19,220 bases of DNA from the IMG/VR virus record IMGVR_UViG_2778261559_000018. One strand, written 5' to 3'. Position 1 is the first letter of the stretch. Every line of letters starts with the position of its first letter. Source of the DNA: a virus. Its lineage: Duplodnaviria > Heunggongvirae > Uroviricota > Caudoviricetes. Below the pieces are notes generated by a model. It did no database searches. It had not been told where the DNA came from and saw only the letters and a program-made list of their open reading frames with translations. The position numbers and the translations under genes were made by a program. Of this stretch, positions 12,033 through 19,220 are shown piece after piece.

Positions 12033-12332
12033 TTTGTCGCTCCATGCGTTTGCTCGTCATCTAGCGGTTAAAATATTACTTCAAATCTTACTGCATAAAA
12101 GAGGAAAAGTATGAAAGTTTGAGTACATCGACCTTACATACATCTGTCGGTTGCATATCCCTCCTGGATGCCAGCAAGGCTCAATTTTGTTACGCAATCA
12201 ACACTATTCATTAAAAACAGGCTTAATATTTGACATAAATCATCAACAAAACACAAAGAGGTCAGACCAGATTGAAACAATAAACACGATAATGCTAACT
12301 ACGCGCCATCGTATCACATGGAAGGTTTACCA

Positions 12333-12743
12333 ATGGCTCAGGCTGCCATTTTTAAAGAAATATTCGATCAAGTGCGTAAAGATTTAAACTGTGAATTATT
12401 TTATTCTGAGCTAAAACGTCACAATGTCTCACTTTATATTTACTATTTAGCCACAGATAATATTCACATTGTGTTAGAAAACGACAACATAGTGTTAGTA
12501 AAAGGACTCAAAAAGGTTGTAAATGTTAAATTCTCCAGAAACAAACATCTTATAGAGACCTCCTATAATAAGTTGAAATCAAAAGAAATCACATTTCAAC
12601 AATACAGGGAAAATCTTGCTAAAGCAGGAGTTTTCCGATGGGTTACAAATATCCAGGAACACCAAAGATATTACTATGCCTTTGATAACTCATTACTATT
12701 TACTGAAAGCATCCAGAAAACTACACAGATCTTACCACGCTAA
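12333..12743 (+). CDS. ydfO: DUF1398-family protein (YdfO/YbcV-like), opposite strand to the late operon
   Basis: 136 aa from ATG 12333 with GGAAGG upstream; same cos-proximal position as ydfO in Qin and ybcV in DLP12; assignment from synteny and length, not alignment. Confidence 0.6.
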
Positions 12744-12894
12744 ACCATAACGTCCGGCTTCTCTCACTCCTGAGCCGGACTGCATTGGTTTAATAAAAAC
12801 CATCAACAATTGTGATTTAGATATTCGGAACCATTCAAATATAACAAAACCCCGAAAAAACGAGGTTTATGGATAAATTTTATTATTGAATACA

Positions 12895-13068
12895 TCAGAT
12901 TAAATTAATCTTGACATCATAGCTTTCAAGACCCGTCATTTTTTCCCGTGCGGTAAACTGAATACTGGTAACTTCTTTCCCGGTCTTTTTCTTAAGTTCA
13001 ATAATTTTTTTTGTTATATATTCAGAAATATCTGCTTCTGCTTTTGTTTTTAAGTTTTCAATATTCAT
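12895..13068 (-). CDS. gnsB: GnsB-like protein (Gns family, 57 aa)
   Basis: Hand-translated MNIENLKTKAEADISEYITKKIIELKKKTGKEVTSIQFTAREKMTGLESYDVKINLI resembles GnsA/GnsB; GAGG 7 nt upstream; missed by the ORF track as <60 aa. Confidence 0.7.
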   Translation of the reverse strand: MNIENLKTKAEADISEYITKKIIELKKKTGKEVTSIQFTAREKMTGLESYDVKINLI

Positions 13069-13239
13069 CATTTCCTCTTTTAGTCTGTTATGACTTTCCA
13101 GTTACACAGTAAGTCGATTATATGGTGCAAACGTGTAAAAGATAAGATGAAACATCGCAATAATCAACATACGATAGTCTAAATTTTACACAAACAGACA
13201 AAGAGAATTTTCCTGAATTATCAATACAATAGCATCAAA

Positions 13240-13470
13240 TCAACTCAAGAGCCTTATTGCTGCTTCCAGAATTTCTTCTGAAGTAACATGTCGATCCGCG
13301 GCTACATAAATGACTTTATGATCTCCGGTCAGAGATGGAAACCCTGCGGCCATTACAGTAAGGTGTGTTTTTTCGCCATTTGGATATTCACGCATGATGG
13401 TGTTAACTCCAGTCATCGCTGGCACTACCACTGCTGGTTCAGAGTTAAAAAAAACTATGATTTTTTTCAT
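13240..13470 (-). CDS. YmcE/YnfN-like small protein (76 aa) upstream of gnsB
   Basis: ORF from ATG 13470 (MKKIIVFFNSEPAVVVPAMTG...); same position and orientation relative to gnsB as ymcE to gnsA in e14; weak ribosome-binding site. Confidence 0.5.
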   Translation of the reverse strand: MKKIIVFFNSEPAVVVPAMTGVNTIMREYPNGEKTHLTVMAAGFPSLTGDHKVIYVAADRHVTSEEILEAAIRLLS

Positions 13471-13514
13471 GATGTTACCGTAGTATGTGAGTATCCATCG
13501 AATAGATACCAAGC

Positions 13515-13537
13515 AAAAAAGCTCCCGAAGGAGCCTT
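13515..13537 (-). terminator. Rho-independent terminator downstream of cspI
   Basis: gctcc-cgaa-ggagc hairpin flanked by A6 on plus, giving a T6 tract on the minus strand. Confidence 0.5.
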
Positions 13538-13741
13538 CATTTTCACTTTTTTAAATCCAACGACAGACGGCTGGCATTTAAGTATTGTGAAATATTATCA
13601 AATGTAATCATCATTGATTTACAAAAGATACATTTTGCCCCGAAAGGATTCATGTCAGAAACATCAAAAGATGATGTTCTATACTGGGAACCATGACAAC
13701 ACGGGCATCTAAAGTGAATATGGTTTGTAATATTGTCTACC

Positions 13742-13954
13742 TCAAAGCGCCACTACATGAACAGCGGCAGGACCTTTAGGTCCGTTCTCAATACCAAATT
13801 CAACTTCCTGATTCTCAGTTAATGTTTTGAAATCGTTGCTCTGAATTGCTGAGAAATGGACAAACACATCTTTGCTGCCATCTTTCGGCGTGATGAAACC
13901 AAAACCTTTTTCAGGGTTAAACCATTTCACTAAACCAGTCATTTTGTTAGACAT
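13742..13954 (-). CDS. cspI: Cold-shock protein CspI
   Basis: 70 aa [70 protein letters not shown] with RNP motifs; matches E. coli CspI as remembered; long AT-rich 5' region. Confidence 0.95.
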
Positions 13955-14316
13955 AATTATTACCTTTTGAAGAAATTAGCCCTTGGGCAGAATGGTCCGA
14001 AAAAAAATATCAGAGAGAAAAACCAACAAGGAAATCTCAAGAGGTACAAATAATAAAATTATAACAATGACTGCTTCAGATAAATTTGTAACAAACCAGA
14101 ACACCATTAACGCATGATTAACCACCCATAGCAAGGATTACTTTTGTAAAGAAAAACACAGCAATGAAAGAATAGCTTTATTTATTAATAAAACGTGTCA
14201 TTCTGATTAAGACCTTTTATCTTACCCTTAAGATTTCAGGAATTTTGGCTCATGGAAGAGTCCTTTTTATTTAAATTTTACATTCCGCGATGTAAATGTT
14301 CCGATTTAATATTACC

Positions 14317-15340
<1,024 letters not shown>

Positions 15341-15344
<4 letters not shown>

Positions 15345-15652
15345 ATATATTTATGATGAGGACGCTCGTGCTTATTGGCAGGATTTTCAATCTTAAAGGA
15401 GTACTGATGCTGCAGATAAGACTCAACTTTTTCTGACAATTTTTCTGCTACTTCCAGGAAGACTTGCCGGACGCTCCTTCTGGCTGCTGCCTCATAAAAC
15501 TCCAGCGCAGCTCCTTCAACACGGTCCATGGCGACATCCAGGTCAAAAATTTCACCGTCAAAGCGTTCCTTGTCCTGTAAGGCTACAGTTACCGTAACTT
15601 TATTCTCAAAATTACGGACTCCTTTCACAACCAGTTCATAGTCTTGAGTCAT
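15341..15652 (-). CDS. ydfR: YdfR-like soluble protein of unknown function (DUF1327-type) inserted between holin and endolysin
   Basis: 103 aa, no transmembrane segment, acidic; GAGGAGAG upstream; same position as ydfR in the Qin lysis cassette. Confidence 0.7.
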
Positions 15653-15656
15653 TGGA

Positions 15657-15872
15657 TTACTCTCCTCTCGCAGCCTTACGCCTGTCTTCTTTAATCTTGA
15701 AATAAAGATTTGTCAGATACGTCAGCAGGCCAAAAACCAGGCTACCCAGCACACCGATTGCAGCCCACTGTGACGGAGTTACTTTATCGAGTAACTGTAA
15801 TGCCCAGAAACCAGCATTACCCGCCGATGTGCCATAGGCAACACCTGTTGTTAACTTATCCATTGATTTCAT
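15657..15872 (-). CDS. essQ: Class II pinholin (phage 21 S-like) with dual-start motif MKSM (antiholin Met1, holin Met4)
   Basis: 71 aa [28 protein letters not shown]...[23 protein letters not shown]...[10 protein letters not shown]; two transmembrane segments, charged C-terminus; near-identical architecture to S21 68/71. Confidence 0.85.
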
Positions 15873-16091
15873 ATCCTCACCCCGATGTACACGGATGGTG
15901 CAATATGTTTGAAAAAGATCGGAGTCTACGGGGTAGTTTTGACAGCACACGTTGTTCTCAACGGCGCTAAAGAAACATACACATTAAAAATGTGAGTAAT
16001 TATTTTGAAAGAAAGTCATATATAAAATAATAATACGAGAAATGTTTTCATATTTAGTGTACTGTATACGGCCATTATACAGGAAAAGCCT

Positions 16092-16262
16092 ATGTCAGAA
16101 CGTAAAGACTCAAAATCACGCCGTAATTATCTCGTTAAATGTTCCTGCCCAAACTGCACCCAAGAGTCAGAACACAGTTTTTCAAGAGTACAAAAAGGTG
16201 CCCTTTTGATCTGCCCTCATTGCAACAAAGTATTCCAGACAAATCTTAAAGCTGTAGCCTGA
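16092..16262 (+). CDS. Small zinc-ribbon protein (56 aa, CxxC...CxxC), possibly YnfU-like
   Basis: Hand-translated MSERKDSKSRRNYLVKCSCPNCTQESEHSFSRVQKGALLICPHCNKVFQTNLKAVA; AGGA 8 nt upstream of ATG; below the ORF-track threshold. Confidence 0.5.
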   Translation: MSERKDSKSRRNYLVKCSCPNCTQESEHSFSRVQKGALLICPHCNKVFQTNLKAVA

Positions 16263-16321
16263 TTGATTTTATTAGTAACAAGTATTTTTTATATTTTAAT
16301 AATATATTTAAAGCAGATAAT

Positions 16322-16344
16322 AAAAAACCCGCCTGAGCGGGTTT
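16322..16344 (-). terminator. Rho-independent terminator (minus-strand polarity), probable cspB terminator
   Basis: aaacccgc-ctga-gcgggttt hairpin followed on the minus strand by TTTTATTAT. Confidence 0.6.
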
Positions 16345-16625
16345 GAGATTGTGGTGCTTTTTGTGGGAGTCATCCACTTACGCACTTTGTTTTGCGATGC
16401 CAGCAGTTAGCTTCTGCTGTGAAACTATTCATGCAGCAAACCTGCACTTCACCACAATGGTTAGCATACTTTTCCTGATTAAGATTTTGCCAAATATGCT
16501 AGCCATTGTTTCATGTATTGGACCTCCTTACTTTTTATTAAAGAGATCCAATATTCACTACTCTGTCCGTATCTCTACTCAGGCATCAGCCTTCTTCGTT
16601 ATCGTATACAGACGAGCGATGAATT

Positions 16626-16841
16626 TTAATCAGTAATGATGACATTTGCTGCTGCAGGACCTTTAGCACCTCTCTCTATAGAGAAGGTAACCTTTTGACC
16701 TTCAAATAAGGTTCGATAATTATCATTCTGAATCGCAGAAAAATGCACAAACACATCTTTACTACCATCAACAGGAGAAATAAAGCCGAAACCTTTATCA
16801 GCGTTAAACCATTTTACTAAACCAGTCATTTTATTTGACAT
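16626..16841 (-). CDS. cspB: Cold-shock protein CspB
   Basis: 71 aa [71 protein letters not shown]; matches E. coli CspB as remembered. Confidence 0.95.
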
Positions 16842-17139
16842 TCTACATTCCTTAACTTGAGCCTTTCGGCATAAATGGTTTGCATAACAGAAACGACTTC
16901 GTACTTAATTGGAGAGACTCAAAGAAGGAATAAGTGAATAACACCTGAAATGAGAACTGCTTTAGTAAACTACTTCGTATATCGTCTGTTCTTCAAACCG
17001 ACGCAGTCATTAACTCATAGTTGAACATATGAAGCAATGTTTATTTTAGACATCCAGCCACCTTCAATCCTATCAAAAAAGTAGTTTTCTCCAGGAACGT
17101 GTGTATGGTGCACCAGGTTATCAGTATTAAGGAGTTTTT

Positions 17140-17345
17140 CTGTCCCCTAAAATGACAGGAATTGTCAAAAACTTTGACTACAAAAGCAGCAAAGGTCTTA
17201 TATTCCCATCCGATGGCGTATCGATGCCCAGCTTCACGTTTCAGCTCTCAATCTTCGAGATGCAGAAGAAATTACCACAGGATTACGCGTGGAATTTTGC
17301 TGGATAAATGGTTCGCGTGGACCTTCAACTGCCAATGTTTATCCC
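17140..17345 (+). pseudogene. cspF: cspF-like cold-shock gene, inactivated: single-base deletion frameshift after the SDG codons, CTG at the ancestral start position, no in-frame stop after the domain
   Basis: Frame 1 encodes (L)[25 protein letters not shown] and frame 0 continues [42 protein letters not shown]; together one cold-shock domain split at about 17217; AAGGAG sits 5 nt upstream of the CTG. Confidence 0.55.

Positions 17346-17516: not shown

Positions 17517-19220
<1,704 letters not shown>

What the first reader, a model, noticed from the sequence alone, without database searches (positions are those of the whole stretch)
16081..16262. Unannotated 56-aa zinc-ribbon protein between the holin and cspB
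A plus-strand ORF with a good ribosome-binding site encodes two CxxC pairs (CSCPNC ... CPHC), a classic zinc-ribbon arrangement. It is below the ORF-track size cut-off and antisense to the late operon, so it would be expressed from the prophage in the lysogen. It may correspond to a small protein such as YnfU found by ribosome profiling in E. coli, but I cannot confirm that from memory.
Basis: partly seen in the sequence, partly recalled or inferred. Interest (0 to 1): 0.5.

Follow-up and report, generated by a model that had tools for sequence, protein, structure and literature searches.

The report
Known small zinc-ribbon protein YnfU
The ORF is real and is the already described E. coli small protein YnfU, a 56-residue basic zinc-ribbon protein of unknown function; the only new point is that across enterobacteria it travels with cold-shock protein genes, not with phage lysis genes.

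Summary
Window 16092..16262 (+) encodes a 56-aa protein with an AGGA Shine-Dalgarno 7 nt upstream and two CPxC knuckles. It is YnfU: it scores far above the cut-offs of Pfam PF23499 and NCBIfam NF038384, differs at one residue (D6N) from K-12 b4776, and RefSeq annotates it as ynfU. Weaver et al. 2019 found it by ribosome profiling and a tagged western blot; later studies re-detected it.

Across about 80 Enterobacterales species, C19, C22, C41, C44 and H28 are invariant, and median dN/dS is 0.11. A conserved promoter-like block and the Shine-Dalgarno precede the gene. The family is tiny: 36 proteins among 1.84 billion representatives, all real members stand-alone proteins of about 55 aa. It is basic (pI about 9.5).

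The fold is a generic zinc ribbon with no close solved relative. The holin neighbour is specific to Qin-like prophages (7 of 80 loci). A cold-shock-domain gene lies within 470 bp in 55 of 80 loci, often in non-prophage chromosome.

Function remains unknown. My best inference is a zinc-stabilised RNA- or protein-binding adaptor linked to csp physiology.

Already known; low interest.

The parts
16092..16262 (+). ynfU coding sequence (56 codons plus stop). It encodes a basic C4 zinc-ribbon small protein; the proposed Zn ligands are C19, C22, C41 and C44.
   Evidence: ORF listing. Pfam PF23499 and NCBIfam NF038384 both score above cut-off. RefSeq annotates it as ynfU. dN/dS is 0.11 and the cysteines are invariant.
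16081..16084 (+). Shine-Dalgarno AGGA, 7 nt upstream of the ATG
   Evidence: Read directly from the sequence. CAGG(A) is invariant or nearly invariant in 43 aligned upstream regions from many genera.
16060..16065 (+). Proposed -10 hexamer TACTGT (family pattern TAnnGT). This is inferred, not mapped. It would place the transcription start near 16072 and give a leader of about 20 nt.
   Evidence: T1, A2 and T6 are fixed in 71 of 72 upstream regions, positions 3-4 vary freely, and the hexamer lies a fixed 26-30 nt from the ATG. No consensus RNA structure explains the conservation. CspF-like genes carry cGTGTATAGTg at a comparable position.
16037..16042 (+). Weak -35-like element GAGAAA, 17 bp upstream of the proposed -10. 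It lies in a conserved block (C-R-R-G-C-W-A-T in other genera). Inferred; it could instead be a regulator binding site.
   Evidence: The G at its third position is conserved in at least 90% of sequences, and conservation stops abruptly just upstream of the block.
16005..16034 (+). Alternative sigma-70-like promoter TTGAAA-18-AATAAT (10 of 12 matches). It is specific to Escherichia and not conserved in other genera.
   Evidence: Consensus scan (the number of sites found is no more than shuffles give). The region does not align outside Escherichia.
16325..16344 (.). Bidirectional intrinsic-terminator hairpin AAACCCGC-CTGA-GCGGGTTT. It has a strong T-tract on the minus strand (the end of the cspB transcript) and a weaker TTTGAGATT tail on the plus strand (the end of the ynfU transcript).
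   Evidence: Terminator scan. The same ACCCGC...GCGGGT hairpin lies 60-115 nt after the ynfU stop in Escherichia, Citrobacter, Klebsiella, Raoultella and Superficieibacter.
16610..17002 (-). Context: cspB (CDS 16626..16841) with its cspA-type thermoregulator 5' UTR, convergent with ynfU. This is the most frequent neighbour of ynfU across genera.
   Evidence: Rfam RF01766 scores 161.6 bits against a gathering score of 78. A CSD gene lies within 470 bp in 55 of 80 loci, and in 37 of those it is convergent and downstream.
15657..15872 (-). Context: the essD/essQ holin, first gene of the lysis cassette and divergent from ynfU. This neighbour is found only in Qin-like prophages.
   Evidence: Annotation. 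Pfam PF04971. The holin cluster is present in only 7 of 80 loci.

Best explanation
The ORF is ynfU, a known and translated accessory gene. Shown here or in the literature: it encodes a 56-aa protein of 6.4 kDa and pI 9.4, under strong purifying selection. The protein has a basic N-terminal tail (residues 1-16: 6 K/R, 2 D/E) and a core made of two CPxC knuckles separated by an invariant S-E-H-S-F..R.QKG segment. It is translated in E. coli K-12. Inferred: C19, C22, C41 and C44 bind one Zn(II) and hold a four-stranded zinc ribbon with a short helix. The gene appears to be its own transcription unit, with a conserved TAnnGT -10 element, a weak conserved -35 block, a strong Shine-Dalgarno, and a hairpin terminator shared back-to-back with cspB. 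That would let it be expressed independently of the phage late operon it faces. It is not functionally part of the lysis cassette. It belongs to a small gene set specific to Enterobacterales (ynfU with cspB/cspF/cspI-like genes, ymcF/ynfQ-like and ynfN-like genes). This set is chromosomal in many genera, and Qin-like lambdoid phages carry it as cargo between Q and the holin. Most likely mechanism (speculative, about 0.35): the zinc ribbon presents its conserved SEHSF/RxQKG face and basic tail to RNA, or to an RNA-associated partner such as a Csp protein, the ribosome or a helicase. In that model it acts as a small stoichiometric adaptor in the RNA-chaperone physiology that the neighbouring csp genes serve. 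The 0.85 confidence covers the identity, the architecture and the independent-unit reading, not the biochemical mechanism.
For: Identity: family HMMs; RefSeq ynfU; 1,650 of 5,426 complete E. coli genomes; one residue different from b4776. Translation: Weaver et al. 2019 by Ribo-RET and SPA western, where YnfU was the highest of the new proteins; PIRT-seq; Ribo-seq/DeepRibo. Selection and ligands: (C19/C22/C41/C44/H28 invariant in 70 of 70 unique sequences; C17 in 68 of 70; median dN/dS 0.11, specific to this frame). Fold: (mean pLDDT 71.6, core 76-83; strands 14-18, 25-29, 38-40 and 47-49; helix 30-35). Searches return only zinc-ribbon matches. Basic character: (family median pI 9.55, net charge about +6.7). 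Own transcription unit: conserved -10-like hexamer and SD, no RNA structure; terminator hairpin in several genera. Not a lysis gene and linked to csp: (CSD within 470 bp in 55 of 80 loci, at least two CSD genes in 27; holin in 7, lysozyme in 10; Klebsiella/Raoultella loci flanked by a LysR regulator, acetolactate decarboxylase and an SDR); phage PHB10 carries ynfU with cspB/cspF, away from lysis genes; chromosomal Hafnia and Cronobacter copies with CSD genes 0.8-1.9 kb away; the flanking csp genes have cspA thermoregulators; the neighbouring small genes ynfR, ynfQ and ynfN are cold-induced or co-regulated with cspI.
Against: No experiment has shown zinc binding, RNA binding or any phenotype. 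The published papers I found give no function. YnfU-SPA is abundant at 37 C in rich medium, so it is not a cold-only protein. The csp linkage could be inherited synteny rather than selected co-function. About 18-25 of the 80 loci have no csp-island gene within 2 kb, and the Erwinia copy sits beside flagellar genes. The transcription start is not mapped, the -35 is poor, and a better-scoring Escherichia-only promoter lies 30 bp upstream. Zinc ribbons bind proteins as often as they bind nucleic acids. The best profile hit in the PDB is a protein-binding DNL finger, not an RNA binder.
Confidence: 0.85

Rival explanations
1. YnfU is a protein-binding small regulator, like most characterised E. coli small proteins. 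One version is a zinc-finger escort or co-chaperone that works like the DNL finger of Tim15/Hep1, which binds Hsp70. The csp neighbourhood would then be only shared ancestry.
Confidence: 0.3
2. YnfU is a phage moron that serves the prophage. It might provide superinfection exclusion or defence, modulate lysis timing, or dampen leaky late transcription into the holin simply by being transcribed in the antisense direction.
For: In this window it sits in the Q-to-S interval, where lambdoid phages carry morons, and it is antisense to the late operon. Six Escherichia phage records carry it at 98-100% identity, and a Klebsiella phage has a 57% homologue divergent from its holin.
Against: The holin is adjacent in only 7 of 80 species loci and the lysozyme in 10. 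Many copies are in plain chromosomal context. It belongs to no PHROG family (best E = 0.0026) and matches no PADLOC model. The protein sequence itself is under strong purifying selection, so antisense transcription alone cannot explain it. In this window the Q gene is interrupted by an IS3 element, so there should be little late transcription to counteract.
Confidence: 0.1
3. YnfU is a metal-homeostasis protein, either a zinc or iron buffer or a sensor, rather than a structural zinc ribbon.
For: It has five cysteines and two histidines in 56 residues, and C17 and H28 are conserved beyond the four knuckle cysteines. A preprint groups ynfU with suf genes among the genes upregulated under hypomagnetic conditions and in lag phase. 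A low-frequency polymorphism in the ynfU/cspB intergenic region was reported in one silver-nanoparticle-evolved line. The Escherichia upstream sequence GAAATGTTTT resembles half of a Zur box; the Zur consensus is recalled from memory.
Against: One zinc per 6-kDa protein is poor buffering capacity. The Zur-like half-site has no matching second half and is absent in other genera. The preprint's 'iron-metabolism' label comes with no evidence, and the silver-line variant is intergenic and occurred in one line at frequency 0.28.
Confidence: 0.05
4. The ORF is a chance reading frame in an AT-rich intergenic spacer and makes no functional protein.
For: It is short and lies in AT-rich DNA where several other short ORFs overlap it.
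Against: Purifying selection is specific to this frame, and the ORF is intact in 77 of 80 species. Translation was detected by four independent approaches. Curated family models exist for it.
Confidence: 0.01

Closest known systems
YnfU of E. coli K-12 (b4776, Qin cryptic prophage; Pfam PF23499, NCBIfam NF038384)
   Same: It is the same gene. 55 of 56 residues are identical (D6 versus N6), the neighbours are the same (essQ/essD holin | ynfU | cspB), and the flanking DNA is 97% identical over 5 kb. It is 100% identical to WP_001405948.1 of O26:H11 strains.
   Different: Only the D6N substitution. The prophage copy in this window also has an IS3 insertion in Q and a damaged cspF.
Generic C4 zinc ribbons, including archaeal ribosomal zinc-ribbon proteins (eL42/L44e, eS27), HVO_2753, LysW, ZitP and Cren7
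   Same: Two CxxC knuckles on beta-hairpins, a size of about 50-60 aa, and often a basic, RNA-binding character. L44e shows a local motif CPxC..(T/S)EHS.S..KG.
PhnA/YjdM N-terminal zinc ribbon (PA0128, PDB 2AKL; Pfam PF08274)
   Same: This is the match Weaver et al. reported by threading. I recovered it weakly (Pfam E = 1.3e-4; PDB profile E = 0.31).
   Different: It is below the Pfam gathering score (22.4 versus 30.8 bits). PhnA has an additional C-terminal domain that YnfU lacks.
DNL-type zinc finger (Tim15/Zim17/Hep1, an Hsp70 escort protein; Pfam PF05180)
   Same: It is the best PDB profile hit, and the spacing of the knuckles and of the S.H..S...KG segment is similar.
   Different: E is only 0.014, Pfam zf-DNL scores 13.4 bits against 27, the tail that would hold the DNL motif is not conserved, and the DNL family is eukaryotic and organellar.
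YmcF/YnfQ-like cold-shock small proteins (Pfam PF23641)
   Same: They are also about 60 aa with two CxxC pairs, restricted to enterobacteria, encoded beside csp genes and often beside ynfU itself.
   Different: They are not homologous: hhalign probability is 1.6%. The cold induction reported for genes of this region has not been tested for YnfU.

Membership tests
YnfU family (Pfam PF23499 / NCBIfam NF038384) | Scores above the curated cut-offs of the family HMMs over the full length | tested here: met
   PF23499 scores 107.7 bits against 27 and covers profile positions 1-49 of 49. NF038384 scores 79.8 bits against 36 and covers 1-51 of 52.
YnfU family (Pfam PF23499 / NCBIfam NF038384) | Two CPxC zinc knuckles with the conserved SEHSF..R.QKG linker | tested here: met
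   C19-P-N-C22 and C41-P-H-C44 are present, and S26 E27 H28 S29 F30 are present and invariant in the family.
YnfU family (Pfam PF23499 / NCBIfam NF038384) | Stand-alone small protein of about 51-63 aa in Enterobacterales | tested here: met
   The protein is 56 aa. All genuine family members found among 1.84 billion representatives are stand-alone small proteins from Enterobacterales.
YnfU family (Pfam PF23499 / NCBIfam NF038384) | Orthology with E. coli K-12 ynfU (b4776): near identity and the same genomic position | tested here: met
   One residue differs, and the gene order essQ | ynfU | cspB is the same.
YnfU family (Pfam PF23499 / NCBIfam NF038384) | Actually binds zinc (the annotated name is 'putative zinc-binding protein') | not testable with these tools
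   Zinc binding is inferred only from the invariant cysteines and the fold. I found no metal analysis in the literature.
Zinc-ribbon fold | Two beta-hairpins, each carrying a CxxC knuckle at its turn, that together form one metal site | tested here: met
   The AlphaFold model has strands 14-18/25-29 and 38-40/47-49 flanking the knuckles. Core pLDDT is 76-83, which is moderate confidence. All structural neighbours are zinc ribbons.
PhnA/YjdM zinc ribbon (PF08274) | Scores above the Pfam gathering threshold | tested here: not met
   22.4 bits against 30.8. The PDB profile E-value to PA0128 is 0.31.
DNL zinc finger (PF05180; Tim15/Hep1) | Scores above the Pfam gathering threshold and has a conserved DNL-type motif after the second knuckle | tested here: not met
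   13.4 bits against 27. The C-terminal tail is variable across the family.
YmcF-like cold-shock small proteins (PF23641) | Homology to the YmcF/YnfQ profile | tested here: not met
   hhalign probability is 1.6%, with 8 aligned columns.
Phage moron (an independently expressed cargo gene in a prophage) | Own promoter and terminator, placed between phage operon genes, not needed for the phage cycle, and variably present among related phages | tested here: inconclusive
   Its position and opposite orientation in the Q-S interval are shown. Promoter-like and terminator-like signals are present but not mapped experimentally. It is present in only 8 of 50,697 phage records. However, most homologues are not in prophages at all.
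Known anti-phage defence proteins (PADLOC) | Matches any defence-system protein model | tested here: not met
   No families matched at E <= 1.
Cold-shock regulon member | Induction on temperature downshift, and a long cspA-type 5' UTR thermoregulator | tested here: not met
   Rfam RF01766 matches cspB and cspI but not the ynfU leader. The conserved leader is about 20-50 nt long and has no consensus structure. Induction itself cannot be tested here, and no published data were found.

The most novel reading that the evidence does not exclude
YnfU is a dedicated partner of the enterobacterial Csp RNA-chaperone system. In this reading it is a basic zinc-ribbon protein that binds RNA, the ribosome or a Csp protein and tunes translation or mRNA structure. 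That would explain why selection keeps it within a few hundred base pairs of cspB/cspF/cspI-type genes across many genera, and why Qin-like phages acquired it together with those genes as one module.
Probability: 0.25. Interest if true: 0.45.

Novelty: already known. Interest (0 to 1): 0.15.

Why it matters
As a discovery it adds little. The gene, its translation and its zinc-knuckle motif were published in 2019 and are in RefSeq, EcoCyc-style K-12 annotation, Pfam and NCBIfam. The finding does show that the first-stage reader can recover a genuine small gene from raw sequence alone. What remains open is the function of YnfU, one of the better-expressed uncharacterised small proteins of E. coli. 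The comparative result here is that ynfU is a chromosomal gene linked to csp genes in many Enterobacterales, and that Qin-like phages merely carry it. I did not find this stated in the papers I could search. It gives a concrete, cheap hypothesis to test (cold or RNA-chaperone phenotypes, Csp or ribosome interaction), in place of treating YnfU as an anonymous prophage gene.

Tried and rejected
(1) RNA element in the conserved leader. The window has a hairpin, CTGTATA..TATACAG, that overlaps the SD. The fold is no better than shuffled sequence (z = -0.36). RNAalifold on 43 genera-spanning sequences predicts 0 pairs, and the variable hexamer positions do not covary with the invariant CC. I rejected this in favour of a promoter plus SD.

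(2) Homology between YnfU and the neighbouring YmcF/YnfQ-like zinc proteins. hhalign gives a probability of 1.6%, so I rejected it.

(3) Domain fusions or distant relatives that might reveal function. The exhaustive HMM search found only 36 hits. The long ones are read-through gene calls (P0050, P0057), an HMA-repeat protein matching only on 'CPNC' (P0067) or a zinc-ribbon repeat protein (P0072). This was uninformative.

(4) Phage-family or defence membership. PHROGs gave a best E of 0.0026 and PADLOC gave nothing.

(6) A promoter profile shared between ynfU and cspF. nhmmer with the ynfU upstream profile hits only ynfU's own upstream regions. Only the short -10 core, cGTGTA(T/A)(G/A)GTg, is shared, so this remains a hint.

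(7) A Zur or Fur box upstream. By eye there is only a half-site, it occurs in Escherichia alone and it is not conserved. The consensus sequences are recalled from memory.

(8) Literature on function or cold induction of YnfU. I found none.

Full report
OBSERVATION. Window 16092..16262 on the plus strand is an ORF of 56 codons, MSERKDSKSRRNYLVKCSCPNCTQESEHSFSRVQKGALLICPHCNKVFQTNLKAVA. Its ATG is the first start codon after an in-frame stop. The cysteine arrangement C17-x-C19-P-x-C22 ... C41-P-x-C44 is as described. The gene lies between the holin essD (15657..15872, minus strand; Pfam Phage_holin_2_1) and cspB (16626..16841, minus strand). It points against the lysis genes.

IDENTITY. The protein matches Pfam PF23499 'YnfU' at 107.7 bits (cut-off 27) and NCBIfam NF038384 'YnfU family zinc-binding protein' at 79.8 bits (cut-off 36), in both cases over the full model. 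A 1.3-kb stretch around it is 100% identical to many RefSeq E. coli chromosomes, for example O26:H11 strain 11368. There the ORF is annotated 'ynfU: putative zinc-binding protein YnfU', WP_001405948.1. In K-12 MG1655 the same position (essQ | ynfU | cspB, inside cryptic prophage Qin) holds ynfU, b4776. The two proteins differ at one residue, D6 here and N6 in K-12, caused by one nucleotide. Window 12255-17341 is 97.4% identical to Qin.

The discovery paper is Weaver et al. 2019 (bioRxiv 10.1101/511675). YnfU was found by ribosome profiling of stalled initiation complexes and confirmed by chromosomal SPA tagging. It had the highest level among the newly identified small proteins. It was also the only one with a recognisable motif: 'a pair of zinc knuckles', with a threading match to the PhnA-like protein PA0128. 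PIRT-seq re-detected it genetically, and a Ribo-seq benchmark found full read coverage and a top DeepRibo score. I found no paper that assigns a function. The word 'unannotated' in the finding's title is thus outdated with respect to public records. The gene is present in 1,650 of 5,426 complete E. coli genomes, in one or two copies, and is labelled ynfU in every record I sampled.

IS IT A REAL, SELECTED GENE? A scan of one genome per species returned 80 loci, nearly all Enterobacteriaceae. The few records labelled Veillonella, Vagococcus, Kocuria or Bacillota are MAGs or tiny contigs and are probably contaminated. The ORF is recognisable in 77 of the 80.

In 70 unique coding sequences C19, C22, C41, C44 and H28 are invariant, and C17 is present in 68. 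Median pairwise dN/dS is 0.11 for pairs with unsaturated dS. The same DNA read in the other two frames gives pN/pS of 1.1 and 2.2. Third codon positions carry most of the variation, at 31/28/48 variable sites. The segment S26-E27-H28-S29-F30 ... R32. Q34-K35-G36 between the knuckles is as conserved as the cysteines.

The whole family is basic, with median pI 9.55 and net charge about +6.7. This protein has pI 9.4 and charge +5.6, with six K/R in its first 16 residues.

An exhaustive HMM search of 1.84 billion representative proteins found only 36 hits at E <= 0.001. The genuine ones are all stand-alone proteins of 51-63 aa. The most divergent come from Cronobacter, Hafnia, Erwinia, Mangrovibacter, Jejubacter and Scandinavium. 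The family is therefore restricted to the order Enterobacterales, and there are no informative domain fusions.

STRUCTURE. AlphaFold2 with the family alignment gives a moderately confident model: mean pLDDT 71.6, with 76-83 over residues 11-50 and disordered termini. It has strands 14-18 and 25-29 around the first knuckle, a short helix at 30-35, and strands 38-40 and 47-49 around the second knuckle. That is a zinc ribbon.

EXPRESSION SIGNALS. Aligning the 130 nt upstream of the ATG from all loci shows a conserved block of about 65 nt that ends at the start codon. Further upstream there is no similarity between genera. Within the block, CAGG(A) (the SD) is invariant or nearly so.

A hexamer TAnnGT (TACTGT here, at 16060-16065) keeps T1, A2 and T6 in 71 of 72 sequences. 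Its positions 3-4 vary freely, and it sits a fixed 26-30 nt from the ATG. That is the conservation signature of a sigma-70 -10 element. Seventeen base pairs upstream lies a weakly -35-like but conserved block, GAGAAA here at 16037-16042.

The alternative, a conserved RNA structure, is not supported. RNAalifold predicts no pairs on 43 sequences. The window's own hairpin, CTGTATA/TATACAG, is specific to Escherichia and no more stable than shuffled sequence. CspF-like genes carry an almost identical core, cGTGTATAGTg, 39-52 nt before their start in 8 loci, while the 9-mer pattern occurs about once per 19 kb overall. This supports the -10 reading and hints at a shared promoter type. A full upstream profile of ynfU, however, finds only ynfU's own upstream regions.

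A better consensus promoter, TTGAAA-18-AATAAT at 16005-16034, exists only in Escherichia, and the scan found no more such sites than shuffles give. Downstream, the hairpin AAACCCGC-CTGA-GCGGGTTT (16325-16344) is a strong terminator for cspB on the minus strand. It has a weaker T-rich tail on the plus strand. The same ACCCGC...GCGGGT hairpin follows ynfU at 60-115 nt in several genera. The gene therefore looks like an independent, monocistronic unit. The transcription start and end are inferred, not mapped.

CONTEXT: NOT A LYSIS GENE BUT A COMPANION OF CSP GENES. I searched the 80 loci with the Qin proteins. Independently, I clustered every ORF within 2 kb of ynfU and checked the recurrent clusters against Pfam. 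The results were:
- The holin is adjacent in 7 loci and the lysozyme in 10, essentially Escherichia/Shigella plus a few Citrobacter and Superficieibacter.
- A cold-shock-domain gene (PF00313) lies within 470 bp in 55 loci. In 37 of these it is convergent and downstream, as in this window.
- 27 loci have two or more CSD genes within 2 kb.
- YnfN-like genes occur in 21 loci and YmcF/YnfQ-like genes (PF23641) in 9.

In Klebsiella and Raoultella the flanks are a LysR regulator, an acetolactate decarboxylase and a short-chain dehydrogenase, which is ordinary chromosome. Phage PHB10 carries ynfU with cspB/cspF near its integrase, far from lysis genes. A Klebsiella phage has ynfU beside its holin with no csp gene.

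Among the most distant members, Hafnia has ynfU-DUF2058-CSD on one strand in a chromosomal setting. Cronobacter has a CSD plus YmcF-like pair 1.9 kb upstream. Erwinia has neither and sits next to fliEFG.

In this window both csp genes near ynfU, cspB (adjacent) and cspI (about 2 kb away, beyond the lysis genes), carry the cspA thermoregulator (Rfam RF01766). Published work shows that the small genes of this Qin segment are cold-induced (YnfR) or co-regulated with cspI (ynfQ, ynfN). YnfU and YmcF-like proteins are not homologous, with an hhalign probability of 1.6%.

MECHANISM. Shown: a translated, strongly conserved, basic protein of 56 aa with two invariant CPxC knuckles. Inferred with good support: one structural Zn(II) bound by C19/C22/C41/C44 in a zinc ribbon, and expression from its own promoter independently of phage late transcription.

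Speculative (my estimate is about 0.35): the conserved SEHSF/RxQKG face and the basic tail bind RNA or an RNA-associated partner, and the protein acts within the physiology served by the adjacent csp genes. Several facts argue against a strictly cold-specific role. YnfU is abundant at 37 C, its leader lacks a cspA-type thermoregulator, and about a quarter of the loci lack csp neighbours.

The rivals are: a purely protein-binding small regulator, possibly escort-like as in Tim15 (0.3); a phage-serving moron (0.1), disfavoured by the non-prophage contexts and by the lack of PHROG or PADLOC matches; and a role in metal homeostasis (0.05). A chance ORF is excluded.

VERDICT. The finding is a correct re-discovery of a gene that is already described and annotated, so its novelty is 'already known' and its interest is low (0.15). 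The residual value is the comparative observation that ynfU is a csp-linked gene of Enterobacterales that Qin-like phages carry as cargo, which turns 'unknown prophage small protein' into a testable hypothesis.

Noticed in passing
window 17658-18916: A segment of about 1.26 kb is absent from K-12 Qin. It is an IS3-family element (ISEc31-like; a 348-aa ORF at 17861..18907) inserted inside the Q antiterminator gene ydfT. The K-12 matches on either side overlap by 4 bp, which looks like a target-site duplication. This prophage copy should therefore be unable to antiterminate its own late operon.
   Followed up: partly
window 17142-17342: cspF is a pseudogene here. Relative to K-12 it has a 1-nt deletion near 17216 that shifts the frame. 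A 258-bp deletion (junction at 17341/17342) also removes its 3' end and the small gene ynfS.
   Followed up: partly
window 17726-17848 (+): Rfam matches the isrC Hfq-binding sRNA (RF01387) at 145 bits against a gathering score of 39. The match lies inside the IS3 element, so this 'sRNA' family may correspond to the 5' region of the IS.
   Followed up: no
window 16345-16625: About 280 nt separate the cspB stop codon (16626) from the only detectable terminator (16344..16325). That implies an unusually long cspB 3' UTR or an unrecognised feature. The only ORF there (16343..16636, +, 97 aa) looks spurious. A low-frequency variant reported in a silver-nanoparticle evolution line maps to the equivalent ynfU/cspB spacer (PMC13306010).
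   Followed up: no
window 17100-17140 and loci L006, L010-L012, L014, L015, L038, L046: CspF-like genes carry cGTGTATAGTg 39-52 nt upstream of their start. This is almost the same -10 core as in the conserved ynfU promoter block (cGTGTAtgGTg). It may mark a promoter type shared within this gene island.
   Followed up: partly
window 13715-14100 (-) and 16610-17002 (-): There are two cspA-type thermoregulator leaders (Rfam RF01766; 112.8 and 161.6 bits), belonging to cspI and cspB. The lysis cassette of this prophage is thus bracketed by cold-shock genes.
   Followed up: no
window 16062-16082 (+): A 7-bp inverted repeat, CTGTATA-N7-TATACAG, has a 3' arm that overlaps the ynfU Shine-Dalgarno. It is found only in Escherichia copies, is not conserved in other genera, and is no more stable than shuffled sequence.
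   Followed up: yes
L016-L033 (Klebsiella and Raoultella loci), around 5001-5400: In these genera ynfU is followed on the same strand by a CspF-like gene only 171-198 nt downstream. The pair sits next to a LysR regulator and an acetolactate decarboxylase (a bud-operon-like neighbourhood). This may be a two-gene ynfU-cspF operon in a non-prophage setting.
   Followed up: partly
L005 (Escherichia phage HannyBb), 4585-7350: The deposited annotation lists about 20 consecutive ORFs of 30-55 codons between ynfU and the Q gene. This looks like over-annotation of a non-coding or tRNA-rich stretch.
   Followed up: no
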